Shown here: positions 3,069 to 64,000 of the stretch, one piece after another
How the letters are laid out: every line of letters starts with the position of its first letter
Numbering within the stretch: the stretch's first letter is position 1
Assembly: GCF_009914755.1 (NCBI RefSeq)
Contig: NC_060927.1
DNA from: the human T2T-CHM13v2.0 reference genome, Homo sapiens
Reading direction: 5' to 3' (one strand)
DNA: 64,000 nt
Notes under the pieces: generated by a model
Database searches by the model: none
What the model saw: the letters and a program-made list of their open reading frames with translations, nothing else
What the model was told of the DNA's origin: nothing
Made by a program: the position numbers and the translations under genes

Positions 3069-3144
3069 TATGTCATATATATTAGAAATATATTAGAAAT
3101 ATATATTAATATATTAGAAATATATTTCTAATATATATGACATA
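3069..3144. repeat. Perfect 24-bp inverted repeat with an internal 28-bp palindrome (AT-rich)
   Basis: tatgtcatatatattagaaatata (3069-3092) is the exact reverse complement of 3121-3144. 3109-3136 is self-complementary. Confidence 0.9.
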
Positions 3145-3577
3145 ACCTCACCGAAGTGGGTGGGGAAAAAGTGCTCACCTAAGTAAGCTAGGAAACTGAT
3201 ATTTTGACTAAAAACTGTAAGAATAATACAGAAGGAATTGCACACAAATATTGTATTCTGGTTAATAAAGTTGTTTCTCACAAGGAATGGGTAAACAATT
3301 TTGATTGATACACATATATACTAAAATTAAACAAATAAGTAAAAAGATGGCAGATAATGGGAGCTAGGTTTCTCAGTTATTAGAGTGGGAGATTACACCT
3401 AAAAAAAAGAGGAACGCTAGAATGAACCATGTGGGACTAGACTAGAATTGGAGAAATCAGTATGAATTCACATTTAGCTTAACATAAATATAAGATTTAT
3501 ATATTATATATATATACACACAGTGATATATAGATAATATAGATACAAGTGGATATACACAGAAACAATTATACATA

Positions 3578-3611
<34 letters not shown>
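3578..3611. repeat. (TG)n(TA)n microsatellite
   Basis: Visible dinucleotide runs. Confidence 0.85.
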
Positions 3612-5419
3612 ACTGAATTAGTATTCACGTATATTATTTCCTAGCTCTGGCTGCTGAACATAGAAGCAATGATATTACAGTAACAATGAGCATGAGCACA
3701 ACCAGAACTCAGACTTTGCTTTTTAATACTCTAACAAATGCTCAAATAAAAAGAATTGGGGATCCTTGGAAAAATGACTGATTCTAGGGCTGGGACATGA
3801 AACCCAGGTGATGAGCCTGGAACATCTTGTACTGCTAGAAAGTAAGGAGTGCTCAAAAGGCAAACAAAAATATCAGGGCATATCAAAAGGACAGAAGAGC
3901 CAACTGAAAGAACTCTCAGTGGTCAAAGCTAGAATAATTTGAGCAAAAAAAGCAAATAACACACTAATGGATTATAACCCAAAGTGTAAAATAATTAACT
4001 ATAAATGTGTACTAATTGAAATAAGTGATTGAATACATTAAAAATGAGAAAGCAGAGAAAAATCTCTTGTGACAAAGAATCCTAAATAATTTGTGTAGAT
4101 GATCTATCCTCAAAAAGGTGGAGTATAACTCCCCAACCCTTGACTGGGGACTGAATTTAGTGACTTGCTTCCAAAAATCAGAATTTGGAAAGGGGGAAGA
4201 AAACTTTACAGCAAAGAAACCTAACACGTGATACCTCAGCAAGATCATCAAGGCTAACATCATCAGTGAGAAGTCATGGTGACAGCATGTACCCTTGGTA
4301 TGATATGATAAAAATGGCATTTCACCTTGCGATTTTCCTCCCCAAAACCTCTATCCCTATCCTAAGCACAACCAAAACGTCAGACAAATACCAATAGAAG
4401 GACATTCAATGAAACACATGACCAGTACTCCTCAAAACAGTGAAGGTCATCAAAAATAAGAAACTCTGAGAAATTGTCACAGATTAGAGAAGCCTAAAGA
4501 GACACAACTAAATGTAATGTGATATCATGTATGGGATTTTGTAACAGAGTAAGGACATTAGGAAAAAACTAGTGATATCAAAAGCCAATGTGGATATTGG
4601 TTCTTAGTAATGTACCAACGTTGGTTTCTTAGTTGTGACAAAGGTTGCATAGCAATGTAAAATATTAACAATAGGGAAACTGGTTGAGGAGTATATGGGA
4701 ATCTTCTGTTTTATCTCTGTAACATTTTTGTAAATCTAAAGCCATTCTAAATAAAAGGGTTATTTAAATTAAAAACATAAGGGACAGACCTTGAGACACT
4801 CTAAAGAAAAATATTCTCTCAGGTCAAAATATAACACATAATCAACTTCCATTGTCTGAGCTCCAGTATTTTATTTCCTTCTCTTTCATCTTGTCCTTTT
4901 CTAGGGCCACAGCATTTTCCCTTATCAGTTAGTTTCTCTACAGGCCCAGTTTCTTTTTTTCTTCCCTTTAGATTTATCCTATAGCCCTCTTTTGGGATTT
5001 TTTTTCAAAGATCTATATTTAAAGCTGCACCAAATAGTCCCCAGATATTCCCCTAAGTCTTCCTTGTGTCAAGATCTCTGCTTCTCTAGGGATCCTGATC
5101 CCCATTACCAATTAAATGGACAAAGATCTATATCTAGGTCACAGGGGCAGAGAAACCATTTATGCTTCAGAAGCACTTTAGTGAAAAAGAGAAGGAGACA
5201 GGCAGTGAAATCCAGTAATAACCTAAAGCCTTATGGGGCCAACGATCCAAGTATTGCTTACAAAACAATTCCTATAGAACAGTAGGGAGTCGATAACTTT
5301 TTAACCTGACCACAATTTTGAAAATGGCTCCTACACGTATAATGCCACCTCTCATTTAATTTACAATTCTTCTTCCTACTTTTCCCAGGCTTCCTCAGTT
5401 CTCATGCCACTCTTATGTA

Positions 5420-5670
5420 CATAATAATGAATAGTAATAACATGTTACATTTTAGTGATTACTATGTGCTATATAATATCTGAATTGTTTTATTTAATCC
5501 TTGTAATAAGATGGTTACTCTTATTATGGGTATCTATATATTGTGAATAATAAAAGTAAGTGAAAAGAGATTCAGTAAGTTTATACCAAGGTCATGTTTG
5601 TAAATGGTGGAACCAAGATTTGAACCAAGATACACATAGCTGCAGAATCATAATTTTAACCTCTATACAT
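5420..5670 (-). mobile_element. MIR remnant
   Basis: MIR-like motifs tttaatcct..., caaggtca..., agatttgaacc; heavily diverged. Confidence 0.55.
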
Positions 5671-5738
5671 TCAGCTTCCTGTCTTTATAGCTCTTTCTTC
5701 TCAGTTACCCCTTTAGAGACCTTTAACATTTGTCATCT

Positions 5739-8476
<2,738 letters not shown>

Positions 8477-54171: not shown

Positions 54172-58018
<3,847 letters not shown>

Positions 58019-58378
58019 ACAATGAGATCACATGGACACAGGAAGGGGAATATCACACTCTGGGGACTGTGGTGGGGTGGGGGGAGTGGGGAGGGATAGC
58101 ACTGGGAGATATACCTAATGCTAGATGACGAGTTAGTGGGTGCAGCGCACCAGCATGGCAGATGTATACATATGTAACTAACCTGCACAATGTGCACATG
58201 TACCCTAAAACTTAAAGTATAATAAAAAATTAAAAAAAAAAAAAACAGAAGCCACATTTTTCCTGATTTTTGCTTTTAACTGCTATGTTATGCTTCTACT
58301 GGAAGAAGCAGCTGACACATAAGTTAACAAGAAAATGTCCTATTTATATTAGCCACAAAGGAAAAGAACAATCTGCTC

Positions 58379-60070: not shown

Positions 60071-60787
60071 TACACCAGATAGAGTTAAATAAGCAAAGCC
60101 TGCACACAAGACTATTGCAAGAGAATGAACTCAACTCTGCTGAAACAAAAAGCAGGTGAACTTTCTAAGCACTGGGATGAGCTAGTGGAAGAAAACTGCA
60201 GGATGTCAGTAGGGAAGCTGGTCAATTTTACTAGACCATATGTATTTTCTAATTATTGCTTGTAGAAGTTAGGCTCCTACCCTCTCCACAGAAACTGGGA
60301 GACGGAGTGTATTTGATGAGTACATTTCAGAGGGATGGCTCCCAAGTCCTTTAGAAAGACATTCCTGAGTTATGAAACTGGCAAGAGCCTGGGAGAAGAT
60401 TTACATCTCAAAGGGCGGAAAAAGAATTTTCAATTACAACTTTTCTCAAGAATGTTCTAAGAAAAGGAAAAGAAAAAATCTTAAGTTTAAATTTAATCAA
60501 GTCTGAGGAACAACAAAAAAATGATTTGTCAGTCAGGCAGCCCTCAGAACCAGAACAAGTTCTGTGAACTCTGGTCAACAATGAGACCAGGCAGCATTTA
60601 TAGAAAATGTAAGTGAAGTATAGAGACAACTTACACGGTTACAGTTTAATTGGTTGATTGGTTACAGAACCTCCCCCAATTACCTAAAGGTCAACAACTG
60701 TGATTGAACCTCATATTGGTTTTGTCTGTGGGGCCTCGTGCAGGAGCTTAGGCCAAATCAATAGCCTCCTCCAAATTTTGTTTAACA
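60071..60787 (-). mobile_element. ERV1 (MER4-group) LTR sequence, probably MER31-like (~60071-60480) plus MER101-like (~60480-60787); the latter is the 3' LTR of the provirus to the right
   Basis: The minus strand reads the PPT-like aaaagaagagaat (60788-60800) directly before TGTTAAAC (the LTR start, 60787). Confidence 0.65.
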
Positions 60788-61418
60788 ATTCTCTTCTTTT
60801 GGTCAAGCTCTCATCTCTACAACCTTCTTATCCTCTCAGCTACTTGTCCTACACATTCCCTTCCTCTCACTCTGGAACTGCACTCCAGGACAAAAACTAC
60901 TCTCCTTTTCCCCTAACAAGAACACATCCTTTATGTAAACTTCATTTACCAAAATTACATCCCAGCCTCCTCACATAAGGAGTTGTTTCCCTTATCATCA
61001 CCATTCTCAATTGCCATATATTGATTAGAATTTCTAACTCTCAGAAACCTCAACTTCCAGTGAAAACCTAGGAAGTAAGCAATTTTGAAATGTTTCCTAT
61101 CAGCATTTGGTAGGTGAGCACCATTTTATAACTTTTAGAAATGTGTTTCCTCATAACACAATTTCCACGTTTATTTACAGACCCATATTTAGTTTCTCTA
61201 TGCTGTATAAAAACAAGATGCCAAAATACATATTATACATGTATACTCAGCAGTTAATGTCTTAGTATTTTAATTTACATAAAAATGACCACAAAATTTT
61301 ATAAATATCTGTTACTTAATAAACACATTCTTGATAGCTTCTTGGCTACCATTATAGCATTATCTTTCCTGTACAGAAAAGCTATTCAACCAGAAACATA
61401 GACCAGTACAATAACAGG

Positions 61419-61737
61419 CAGTAGCCCCGCCCCATTGTCTGTGGAGGATGTTTCAAGACCCACAAAGGATGTCTGAAACCATGGGTAGTATTAAACCCTA
61501 CATGTACTATGTTTTTTCCTATATATACCTATGACAAAGTTTAACTTATAGATTAGGTACCGTAAGAGATTAACAATAGTGAAATAGAACAATTACAACA
61601 ATATACTGCAGTGAAAGCTATGTGAATGTGGTCTCTCAAAATATTGTACTGTATGCACTCACCTATTCTTGGACCACCGTTGACTGTAGGTAACTGAAAC
61701 CATAGAAAGCAAGACTGTAGATAAGGAAGCACTATTG
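61419..61737 (+). mobile_element. MER44A (Tigger7-derived MITE) inserted in the ERV integrase
   Basis: cagtag...ctattg termini with TA on the right; ttcaagaccc..ggatgtctgaaacc core; ~320 bp. Confidence 0.82.
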
Positions 61738-62213
61738 TATTCGTATCCTGTTTAATGTGGTAATTGAATGAAATCCCACTGTTAATGTTGAAATGGTCCT
61801 TCAGGTAGCAGAAAGGTGCCGCCTGGAGATTTGATTGTCTTCCAAGGCTTATGGGTTTGGCAAACCAAATATTAGGCACAAACTATTTTAGCAATTTTGT
61901 CACCCCACCGATTTTTTTTATAATTTGGATCATTTTGCCTATTACATGAGTTGTAGAGTTCAAAGTTCTTAACAAGGGAATCTTCAAGGACTCAGGGAGG
62001 ACCAGGTAGCCATCCAGGCACTGCGTGAGTCCATGCTTAACACTGAATTTACTTTCTTTCAGATACCAATTTTTTTTCTCCAAATCAGGGGCTTTGCGTT
62101 GTTTATTACATAGATCATCATAAACATTGACTTGGATCAATCATATAGGTATCATTCTAATTGCACATCCTATCCATTCAGCACTAGCTGATTTAGCATT
62201 CCCTTTACAGTTA

Positions 62214-62885
62214 TGGGCTTCACCCTTGGATGCATCTGGCTGAGATTGAGATTCTATCTAAAGTTGCCTCAACCCTGCCACCTCTTTGGTGTAGTTCTGG
62301 CCCTCAGTGCTGCAGCTTCCATGTGCTTCTCCAGCTTTGCCTCCAGATGCTAGGTGCATTCCCTCACCTGATCTGAATTTTCATGTTCCCCTTTTAGCTT
62401 CTCTACAATACCTTTGAGATGTTTCACTATGACCTGTGACTGCTAGGACTCCTCCTCTGCTGGCCTTCCACCTGTACTCCTCCTGTCATGTAGCCTCTGA
62501 CTTCGTCAGTTCCTTGCTGAGCTCCTGCCAGAGCTTGGCCAGCTCCACATTCTGCTTGCCGCCCACATGGCTCATGGCTTGGTTCGAGGTATCCCTCAGG
62601 ATGGAGTTCTGCAGCTGCCCCTGAAGAATCCAGATCTTGCCCTAAATCTGCTGCACCTCCTTCATGTGCTCCCAGTAGTTGGCCCACATGGTCACTTCTG
62701 GGCCATCAGCTGCTTTTTCACCTTGGCCTCCCAGACTGCTGTCTTGACATTTTTCACGACATCTCCTTCTAAGTTCCCTCAGTTTGCTCTTGGGGACAGA
62801 CACATCTTCCCACTCCATGAACAGCAGCTTTTACTTCTCTTCCAGCTGGCATTTTAGAATTGCCACCATATTGCCTTCTGAGTGG
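62214..62885 (-). pseudogene. RRBP1: Intronless, internally deleted RRBP1 (ribosome-binding protein 1, p180) coiled-coil coding fragment embedded in the ERV
   Basis: Minus-strand translation: VAILKCQLEEK*KLL..EDVSVPKSKLREL, EAKVKKQL, YWEHMKEVQQI*GKI, NSILRDTSNQAMSHVGGKQNVELAKLWQELSK, VKHLKGIVEKLKGEHENSDQVRE, QNYTKEVAGLRQL*IESQSQ. These match recalled RRBP1 (VAILKRQLEEKEKLL; NSILRDALNQATSQVESKQNAELAKLRQELSK; QNYAKEVAGLRQLLLESQSQ). Multiple stops and frameshifts. Confidence 0.88.
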
Positions 62886-63216
62886 GGAAGCAGTTCAATT
62901 TGGTCTAAAAGGAGGAGGCTTATTGGTAGACTGGCATAAAAAAATAAAAAATCTCTGTTCCTATGTCTTGTTTGTTTGCCATAAAGGCAGACATATTGGG
63001 ATAAAGACTTTTTTAGTCTAGGTCTTTTGGTTGTAGGATAAAATAAGGAAATAAGGATGAAAAAGTCCCTTTGGTCTAATCCCTGCAATAGTTGTAATTG
63101 GAGGGAAATAAGTTTGTTAGCTTTTGGCAATTTTTCTTATTTTAAAGTCCTCTCAAGGTGTTCAGCTAAAGCTACCAATTCAGCTATATTTATAACTTCC
63201 TATCCACTTTATGCTT

Positions 63217-63573
63217 TTGTTGTTGTTGTTTGTTTTGGTTTTTTGTTTTTTTGTTTTTTTGTTTTTTTTTTTTTTGAGATAGAGTCTCACTCTATTGCCC
63301 AGGCAGTAGTGCAGTGGTGCAATTTTACAATTTCGGCTCACCACAACCTCCACCTCAAGGGTTCAAGGGTTCAAGCGTTTCTCCTGTATCAGCCTCCCAA
63401 GTAGCTGGGATTACAGGTGCCCGCAGCCACACCCAGCTAATTTTTGTATTTTTAGTAGAGACGTGGTTTCACCATGTTGACCCGGCTGGTCTTGAACTCC
63501 TGACCTCAAGTGATCCACCCTCCTTAGCCTCCCAAAGTGCTAGGATTACAGGCATGAGCCCCTGCTCCCAGCC
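63217..63573 (-). mobile_element. AluS (Sx-like) with a (TTG)n/T-rich tail, inserted in ERV gag
   Basis: Antisense Alu dimer. Degenerate TSD actttatgctt (63206-16) / agtttatgttt (63574-84). Confidence 0.92.
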
Positions 63574-64000
63574 AGTTTATGTTTCTTAATCAGACTGCTA
63601 CATTTAGGACAAAGTTTGTTTATAAATAAAGCAGTTAATGCCATTTCAGTCTCTCAAGGAAATACTCCCTTGTTGTATTTTAAACACAGAATATTTTACA
63701 AATGTTGTTTCTAAATGATCTCCGTAATGTGAAACCAGCTCATCTTTCTTCTGCTTGCAAGAATATGTGTTGGTCCAATCAGTTTTCTGTGGAAAAACCT
63801 TAAGGATTGAATTTAAATGGTTTTTAGTGACGCTCCCAGCTCATTTCATGCCTTCTCACGAGGAAGAAGAAGTCTTTAATATCCTGCTCAAGTTCTTTCC
63901 ATTCTACTGCTGCTATCCATTTACAAGCTTCATCAAGTCCAAATATCATGTAAATAAATTGGTAATCATCAGGGTGTCCTGATGGTAAATTCCTATGAGA

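What the first reader, a model, noticed from the sequence alone, without database searches (positions are those of the whole stretch)
60788..64000. Endogenous retrovirus that appears to have captured host RRBP1 cDNA in place of pro/RT
Seen, in minus-strand order: gag (MHR-like and Zn-knuckle remnants, to ~62886), ~670 bp of intronless RRBP1 coding sequence (62885-62214), RNaseH-end/integrase remnants (62213-61320), PPT, LTR. The host piece is in the proviral orientation and is purely internal CDS. It has no 3' UTR, poly(A) or TSD, and protease and RT are missing exactly where it sits. At the downstream junction gaagccca can be read both as RRBP1 E-A-Q and as RNase H-like E-A-H, and it is followed by aagggaatgct..aaatcagct, so it may be a microhomology. 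Established: acutely transforming retroviruses gain cellular sequence by RT template switching that replaces viral genes, whereas L1-made retrocopies normally carry poly(A) and TSDs. Inference: this is a fossil gag-[host gene]-IN transducing provirus. The MER44A and AluS insertions suggest it is an old primate event. I cannot tell whether it was amplified or has been described.
Basis: partly seen in the sequence, partly recalled or inferred. Interest (0 to 1): 0.9.

Follow-up and report, generated by a model that had tools for sequence, protein, structure and literature searches.

The report
Fossil retrovirus carrying captured RRBP1 mRNA
A dead, single-copy endogenous retrovirus on human chromosome 3 has about 2.3 kb of its enzyme genes replaced by a 670-base spliced copy of the host RRBP1 message, likely picked up when its reverse transcriptase jumped between RNAs roughly 45-80 million years ago, which would make it a rare, old human example of a known gene-capture process.

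Summary
On the minus strand lies a 5.0-kb class I provirus (LTRs at 65479-65155 and 60787-60468; K2P distance 0.235), inserted into another LTR. Positions 62885-62214 are intronless RRBP1 coding sequence, 81-82% identical to the chr20 gene across six exon junctions. Sister proviruses carry protease, RT and RNase H between the same anchors, so about 2.3 kb was replaced. Both virus-host junctions sit on shared short words (5 nt exact; about 0.0045 each by chance). There is no poly(A), 3' UTR or duplication around the insert. Best reading (0.8): reverse-transcriptase template switching in a virion, an LTR-mediated retrocopy like FAM8A1/HERV-K. Main rival (0.13): cDNA-patched break repair in a resident provirus. 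Against excitement: only one copy was found in T2T; the insert decays neutrally (dN/dS 0.55-0.62, six stops); the in-frame junctions are expected by chance (about 0.14). RefSeq already marks part of it as pseudogene RRBP1P2. I found no paper on its ERV origin, and it is absent from Tan et al.'s three human cases. New member of a known kind.

The parts
63576..64000 (-). gag remnant (capsid region, MHR-like motif by eye), with stops and frameshifts. The element runs past the window end; counted on in window coordinates (read in L009): gag to about 64555 and beyond, an Alu monomer at 64740-64570 (FLAM-like name recalled), a primer-binding site at 65151-65134 (15 of 18 to a tRNA-Ser end) and the 325-bp 5' LTR at 65479-65155
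   Evidence: 68-73% to sister gag; translations, no Pfam hit itself; 5' LTR; PBS (compared by eye); Alu monomer
63225..63575 (-). Alu inserted in gag with a target duplication (AluS name recalled)
   Evidence: interrupts the sister alignment
62886..63224 (-). gag 3' end with decayed zinc knuckle, cut about 16 codons before the sisters' gag stop
   Evidence: zf-CCHC in sister L051 E=0.002
62874..62885 (-). 5' virus-host junction: CCACT shared exactly, about 10 of 11 over the 12-nt overlap; lies at base 2 of an RRBP1 exon
62470..62885 (-). RRBP1 piece 1: four exons (chr20:17692590-17684133), intronless, 82% identical
62214..62490 (-). RRBP1 piece 2: four later exons (chr20:17671473-17669263), 81% identical; joined to piece 1 across a 912-nt jump at a GAGCAG repeat
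62214..62221 (-). 3' host-virus junction GAAGCCCA (RRBP1 E-A-Q; RNase H E-A-H)
61738..62213 (-). RNase H end and integrase N-terminal remnant, with two short deletions right after the junction
   Evidence: about 67-77% to 29 other loci; sisters hit RNase_H, Integrase_H2C2, rve
61419..61737 (.). ~320-bp high-copy insertion after a TA in integrase (MER44A name recalled)
   Evidence: 2363 candidates, 72-77% to other copies
61321..61418 (-). integrase core remnant; the rest of integrase and env are absent
60788..60800 (-). polypurine tract
60468..60787 (-). 3' LTR, last ~4 bases and any target duplication lost; 78% to the 5' LTR beyond the window
60110..60467 (-). 3' part of an older LTR of another family split by the provirus; its 5' part lies beyond the window at about 65480-65590 (MER67-like name recalled)
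   Evidence: flanks contiguous in 11 of 12 intact copies

Best explanation
The chr3 element is a dead provirus whose protease-RT-RNase H region is replaced by spliced RRBP1 sequence, likely because its reverse transcriptase switched from the viral RNA to a co-packaged RRBP1 mRNA and back at short shared words before integration. Inferred order during minus-strand synthesis: leave the viral RNA at GAAGC in RNase H; copy RRBP1; jump 912 nt at a GAGCAG repeat (or lose that stretch later); return to gag at CCACT. A helper virus would have supplied the enzymes. The chimera integrated once into an older LTR and has since decayed neutrally, gaining two Alus and a DNA-transposon-like insert. Shown: anatomy, replacement, microhomologies, single copy, decay. 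Inferred: virion template switching, timing, helper.
For: Both LTRs, PBS and PPT enclose the insert. Sisters carry RVP, RVT_1, RT_RNaseH and RNase_H between the same anchors; 4 of 10 sisters span 2350-2395 nt against about 700 here. The insert is intronless, in the proviral sense and purely internal CDS. The ERV match and the RRBP1 match overlap at both ends (10 of 15 sisters at the 5' end; 9 of 27 with GAAGC(T/C)CA at the 3' end). An exact overlap of 5 nt or more occurs at 0.0042-0.0048 of random breakpoint pairs. Ages agree: LTR-LTR non-CpG K2P 0.195 against insert-parent non-CpG dS 0.215. These are the features of LTR-mediated retrocopies in Tan et al. 2016 (PMC5131818, passages).
Against: A single copy, so passage through a virion is not proven. 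No APOBEC-like strand bias (G>A 16, C>T 17). Target loss and spliced-mRNA capture also occur in break-repair insertions (PMC1920257, PMC4516963, abstracts). Junctions are judged against sisters only 76-79% identical; exact CCACT occurs in only 7 of 15, and the true progenitor is unknown. The provirus's own TSD cannot be read.
Confidence: 0.8

Rival explanations
1. A resident provirus suffered a double-strand break, and RRBP1 cDNA (made by L1 or another RT) was patched in through microhomology, with loss of 2.3 kb.
For: Endonuclease-independent insertions come with target deletion (PMC1920257, abstract). Spliced mRNA pieces are captured at breaks in mouse zygotes (PMC4516963, abstract). Single copy. 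An L1-type RRBP1 retrocopy on chr7 shows the mRNA reached the germline retroposition pool.
Against: It needs a chance hit in ERV-internal DNA in the sense orientation. The insert's divergence matches the LTR age, so it would have to follow integration closely. A clean 2.3-kb replacement with homology at both ends plus an internal jump is the usual template-switch product.
Confidence: 0.13
2. An ordinary L1 processed pseudogene landed in the provirus, and later deletions removed its 3' end, poly(A), TSDs and the neighbouring pol.
For: The element has many short deletions, some at direct repeats, and has lost env and part of integrase.
Against: It needs separate large deletions on both sides that remove about 2.3 kb of ERV and the RRBP1 3' end. 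The chr7 control keeps its 3' UTR and an A tract; this one has none.
Confidence: 0.04
3. Classic two-step transduction: a provirus in or near RRBP1 gave a read-through or spliced gag-RRBP1 RNA, and only the 3' junction came from RT switching.
For: The 5' junction lies at base 2 of an RRBP1 exon.
Against: Sisters have no GT donor at that point, and the junction is explained by homology. No remnant of this family in the 40 kb of RRBP1 searched (the rest of the gene was not searched).
Confidence: 0.03

Closest known systems
LTR-mediated retrocopies (Tan et al. 2016, PMC5131818), including human FAM8A1 in HERVK14 (Jamain 2001, seen only as cited there) and ENSG00000230535 in MER4 (parent BASP1, name recalled)
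   Same: Partial intronless mRNA replacing internal ORFs, flanked by one element, microsimilarity at the switch points, no poly(A) or TSD.
   Different: Not among their three human rows (Supplemental Table 8). About twice as diverged (18-19% against 8-9%). Class I host virus, microhomology at both ends, a jump inside the mRNA, one copy where FAM8A1 has two in the table.
Crocodilian gene-capturing ERVs CrocERV29 (KIT-ligand) and CrocERV31 (nectin3) (PMC4299795, passages)
   Same: Ancient ERV holding a host mRNA, in the nectin3 case at the cost of a viral gene.
   Different: Those are multi-copy with ORFs under purifying selection; this one is single-copy and broken.
Acutely transforming retroviruses with gag-onc fusions (own knowledge)
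   Same: Host CDS joined to gag in the same register and replacing pol; helper-dependent.
   Different: No sign of selection or spread; RRBP1 is an ER coiled-coil protein (recalled), not a classic oncogene.
HEPSI / MER4-group class I ERVs (Vargiu 2016 PMC4724089; Kojima 2018 PMC5753468; passages)
   Same: Sisters show a single in-frame stop between gag and protease and an MLV-type integrase C-terminus. The LTR divergence (20-24%) is inside the 13-31% given for HEPSI.
   Different: The exact Dfam/Repbase family could not be assigned; no repeat library was available, and the HEPSI label is a recalled resemblance.
L1 processed pseudogene, e.g. the chr7:53.16 Mb RRBP1 retrocopy
   Same: Intronless copy of the same mRNA.
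   Different: chr7 keeps the 3' UTR and an A tract and is only 5'-truncated; chr3 is cut at both ends and embedded in an ERV.

Membership tests
LTR-mediated retrocopy | Intronless, partial copy of a host mRNA | tested here: met
   Six exon junctions, both ends inside the CDS
LTR-mediated retrocopy | Both flanks from one LTR element, with internal ORF sequence replaced, not merely interrupted | tested here: met
   Ten loci match both flanks; about 2.3 kb with pro/RT/RNase H missing here
LTR-mediated retrocopy | Microsimilarity at the switch points | tested here: met
   5 nt exact at both ends, longer near-matches; chance about 0.0045 each
LTR-mediated retrocopy | No poly(A) or TSD at the retrocopy | tested here: met
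LTR-mediated retrocopy | 5' and 3' LTRs both present | tested here: met
LTR-mediated retrocopy | Chimera formed before integration (no intact provirus at the orthologous site) | not testable with these tools
   No related genomes are held for this assembly (header)
LTR-mediated retrocopy | Co-transcription from the LTR | not testable with these tools
   No expression data
Amplified or selected transducing retrovirus (acute type) | Further copies sharing the junctions | tested here: not met
   Only chr3, chr7 and the parent match; no RRBP1 sequence in 46 sister loci, best E=0.83
Amplified or selected transducing retrovirus (acute type) | Host ORF under purifying selection | tested here: not met
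   dN/dS 0.55-0.62 against 0.37-0.45 for the chr7 pseudogene; 6 stops in 205 codons
Amplified or selected transducing retrovirus (acute type) | In-frame gag-host fusion | tested here: inconclusive
   All three junctions keep register relative to sisters and parent, but the chance is about 0.14 given microhomology (0.43 x 0.43 x 0.76)
L1 processed pseudogene | 3' end with poly(A) and TSD | tested here: not met
   control
Class I ERV (HEPSI/MER4 group) | LTRs, PBS, gag-pro read-through stop, gamma-type pol | tested here: met
   (class I only; the stop and pol are seen in sisters)
Class I ERV (HEPSI/MER4 group) | Assignment to a named Dfam/Repbase family or to the epsilon-like Pol clade | not tested
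   No repeat library available; no Pol tree built

The most novel reading that the evidence does not exclude
A fossil of a once-replicating gag-RRBP1-integrase fusion virus: the three junctions kept the reading frame because the chimeric coiled-coil protein was expressed and passed on with a helper, making it an early-primate counterpart of acute transducing retroviruses, with sister copies surviving in other primate lineages.
Probability: 0.06. Interest if true: 0.75.

Novelty: new member of a known kind. Interest (0 to 1): 0.42.

Why it matters
Tan et al. listed only three ERV-made retrocopies (two genes) in the human genome, all under 10% diverged. This locus would add a third gene, a case about twice as old, with homology visible at both junctions and a jump within the mRNA. 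It suggests that old processed pseudogenes cut at both ends hide more ERV captures that young-copy screens miss, and that the RefSeq span of RRBP1P2 is wrong. It has no evident function today.

Tried and rejected
Amplification: four genome searches (insert, chr7 copy, parent exons 2-4 of the captured stretch, its first exon) found no other ERV-embedded copy. The tool scores only best candidates and needs shared words, so very decayed copies could be missed. Selection: pairwise dN/dS is higher than in the chr7 pseudogene; rejected. In-frame junctions as a sign of selection: expected about 14% of the time; not used as support. Exon skipping as the cause of the 912-nt gap: both ends are mid-exon; rejected. 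Splicing from a viral donor at the 5' junction: no GT there in sisters; rejected. APOBEC3 signature: none. Provirus TSD: unreadable, as about 4 LTR bases and the duplication are gone. Pfam on the element itself: no retroviral or RRBP1 hit. TIR search on the 320-bp insert: no clean terminal pair. The long-gap alignments were noise and were not used; only its BLAST rows and spans were. Sisters were seen only as 3.3-kb loci, so their LTRs and full layouts were not compared. Orthologues could not be examined.

Full report
Host piece. Window 62885-62211 (minus strand) matches seven exon stretches of a gene at chr20:17.67-17.69 Mb with the introns absent; the hub annotation identifies the pseudogene's parent as RRBP1. 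I defined the exons by splice sites, by a chr7 retrocopy and, for six middle exons, by a codon/splice-site chain that gave an open 210-aa frame (a prediction). Against the resulting 1890-nt stop-free CDS stretch the insert is two pieces: mRNA 2 to about 490 (339 of 412 columns identical) and about 1390 to 1674 (234 of 288), with six exon junctions and a 912-nt jump whose ends are both mid-exon and share GAGCAG. Several 1-39 nt deletions break it further, some at direct repeats. There is no 3' UTR or poly(A), and the junction flanks share only a 5-nt word. RefSeq's RRBP1P2 (62471-63291) covers piece 1 plus about 400 nt of gag and Alu tail and omits piece 2.

Provirus. A self-comparison found a direct repeat at 65479-65155 (window coordinates counted on beyond the window end) and 60787-60468. 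The upstream copy is the 3' LTR's best other match among 40 scored of 134 candidates. It runs TG...CA and is followed by a PBS matching a tRNA-Ser end at 15 of 18 (compared by eye); a purine tract precedes the 3' LTR. The outer flanks are two halves of another LTR family, contiguous in 11 of 12 intact copies fetched (chosen from the 40 scored hits for starting at the query's first base). So integration was clean, but the last 4 or so bases of the 3' LTR and the TSD are lost. LTR divergence is 62 of 316 sites, K2P 0.235 (0.195 without CpG-like sites): 44-53 My at 2.2e-9 and 65-78 My at 1.5e-9 per site per year (rates from my own knowledge). An Alu monomer, a full Alu and a 320-bp high-copy repeat inserted later; their family names are recalled.

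What was replaced. The gag flank gave 17 other matches and the pol flank 39 of 40 scored (251 candidates). Ten loci match both in order. The span between anchors is 2350-2395 nt in 4 of 10, 1173 in one and 3101-7786 in five, against about 700 here. In two sisters scanned, that span holds RVP (E=5e-6 in one; a weak protease hit in the other), RVT_1, RT_RNaseH and RNase_H, followed by integrase domains; the chr3 element gave no Pfam hit in 3 of 3 frames. About 2.3 kb, from just before the gag stop to near the end of RNase H, is gone exactly where RRBP1 sits. Integrase stops at about 61321 and no env match was found.

Junctions. At the 5' end (15 of 17 gag-side loci aligned; L057 and L065 left out), the ERV alignment runs to 62877-62874 in 10 of 15, overlapping the RRBP1 match that begins at 62885. 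CCACT is exact in 7 of 15, and 5 of 15 read CCACTAGAGG against RRBP1 CCACTCAGAAGG. At the 3' end (27 of 29 pol-side loci; L039 and L042 left out), 9 of 27 read GAAGC(T/C)CA 57-58 nt before a common anchor, against RRBP1 GAAGCCCA. Ten of the 27 have unrelated sequence there and the rest carry variants. Random breakpoint pairs between six sister stretches and the mRNA share 5 nt or more in 0.42-0.48% of cases, so two such junctions are about 2e-5. All three junctions keep the codon register, but given microhomology that is expected about 14% of the time, so it is not evidence of selection.

Copy number, selection, timing. Searches with the insert, the chr7 copy and parent exons found only the parent, chr3 and chr7; 46 sister loci had no RRBP1 match better than E=0.83. 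The chr7 copy is a conventional 5'-truncated retrocopy with a 3' UTR (split by an LTR) and an A tract. Pairwise dN/dS against the parent is 0.55 (0.62 non-CpG) for chr3, with 6 stops in 205 codons, and 0.37 (0.45) for chr7: no constraint. Non-CpG dS of 0.215 resembles the LTR distance of 0.195. In the shared region chr3 has 23 private non-CpG differences in 226 sites against 17 for chr7. The capture is therefore about as old as the integration and probably somewhat older than the chr7 copy. G>A and C>T are balanced (16 and 17).

Mechanism. The anatomy is that of double template switching by RT between co-packaged viral RNA and host mRNA, followed by one integration with helper enzymes (0.8; the switching is inferred). 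cDNA-patched break repair soon after integration can leave similar scars (PMC1920257 and PMC4516963, abstracts only) and remains at 0.13. An eroded L1 retrocopy (0.04) and read-through transduction (0.03) need more coincidences; no remnant of this family was found in the 40 kb of RRBP1 held.

Prior knowledge. Tan et al. 2016 (PMC5131818; passages, supplement search, and part 6 of the supplemental tables; file 1 of the supplements could not be searched) define LTR-mediated retrocopies and list three human cases: FAM8A1 twice in HERVK14 and ENSG00000230535 in MER4. RRBP1 occurs nowhere in the main text or the nine files searched. Chong 2014 (PMC4299795, passages) describe multi-copy, selected captures in crocodilians. 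Vargiu 2016, Kojima 2018 and PMC1914374 (passages) served for family context only. Searches for 'RRBP1P2' gave 0 papers, and for endogenous retrovirus + RRBP1 + pseudogene one unrelated paper by its listing; listings showed nothing on this locus. The library lacks most subscription papers and bioRxiv supplements, so an entry in a retrocopy table elsewhere is possible.

Verdict. Real, and well supported as an LTR-mediated retrocopy: a new, old member of a known and rare kind, single-copy and functionless by every test available. Interest 0.42.

Noticed in passing
window 62471-63291: The RefSeq span of RRBP1P2 includes about 400 nt of ERV gag and Alu tail and misses the second RRBP1 piece (62470-62214).
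   Followed up: yes
L012:4240-7410 (chr7:53,164,240-53,167,410): A 5'-truncated RRBP1 retrocopy, 88% identical to the parent, whose 3' UTR is split by a ~1.6-kb LTR (LTR12-like, name recalled) and which ends in an A tract.
   Followed up: partly
window 62885 / chr20:17,692,590: The 5' switch point falls at base 2 of an RRBP1 exon; possibly chance, possibly RT pausing near an exon junction (speculation).
   Followed up: partly
window 62213-62196: Two short deletions relative to sisters lie immediately after the 3' junction, apparently between short repeats; they may be RT slips in the same event.
   Followed up: partly
L049/L022 (chr9:107.05 Mb) and L061 (chr12:104.96 Mb): Sister proviruses with their own internal deletions of pro-pol; no RRBP1 sequence in them, other inserts not checked.
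   Followed up: no
L030, L031, L033, L035, L036, L040, L043, L045, L046, L047: Ten loci share the RNase H-end/integrase sequence but have unrelated DNA just upstream, suggesting a deleted, amplified sub-family with a common breakpoint close to the one used here.
   Followed up: no
L027 and L029 (chr2:73.65 and 73.71 Mb): Two nearly identical sister copies 60 kb apart, probably a local duplication.
   Followed up: no
window 56849-58240 (+): A young-looking L1 3' end with a 383-aa open ORF2 stretch lies about 2 kb from the provirus.
   Followed up: no
chr11:95,009,850-95,016,993: Two LTRs of this family 7 kb apart on one strand, likely a fuller provirus of the closest LTR type.
   Followed up: no
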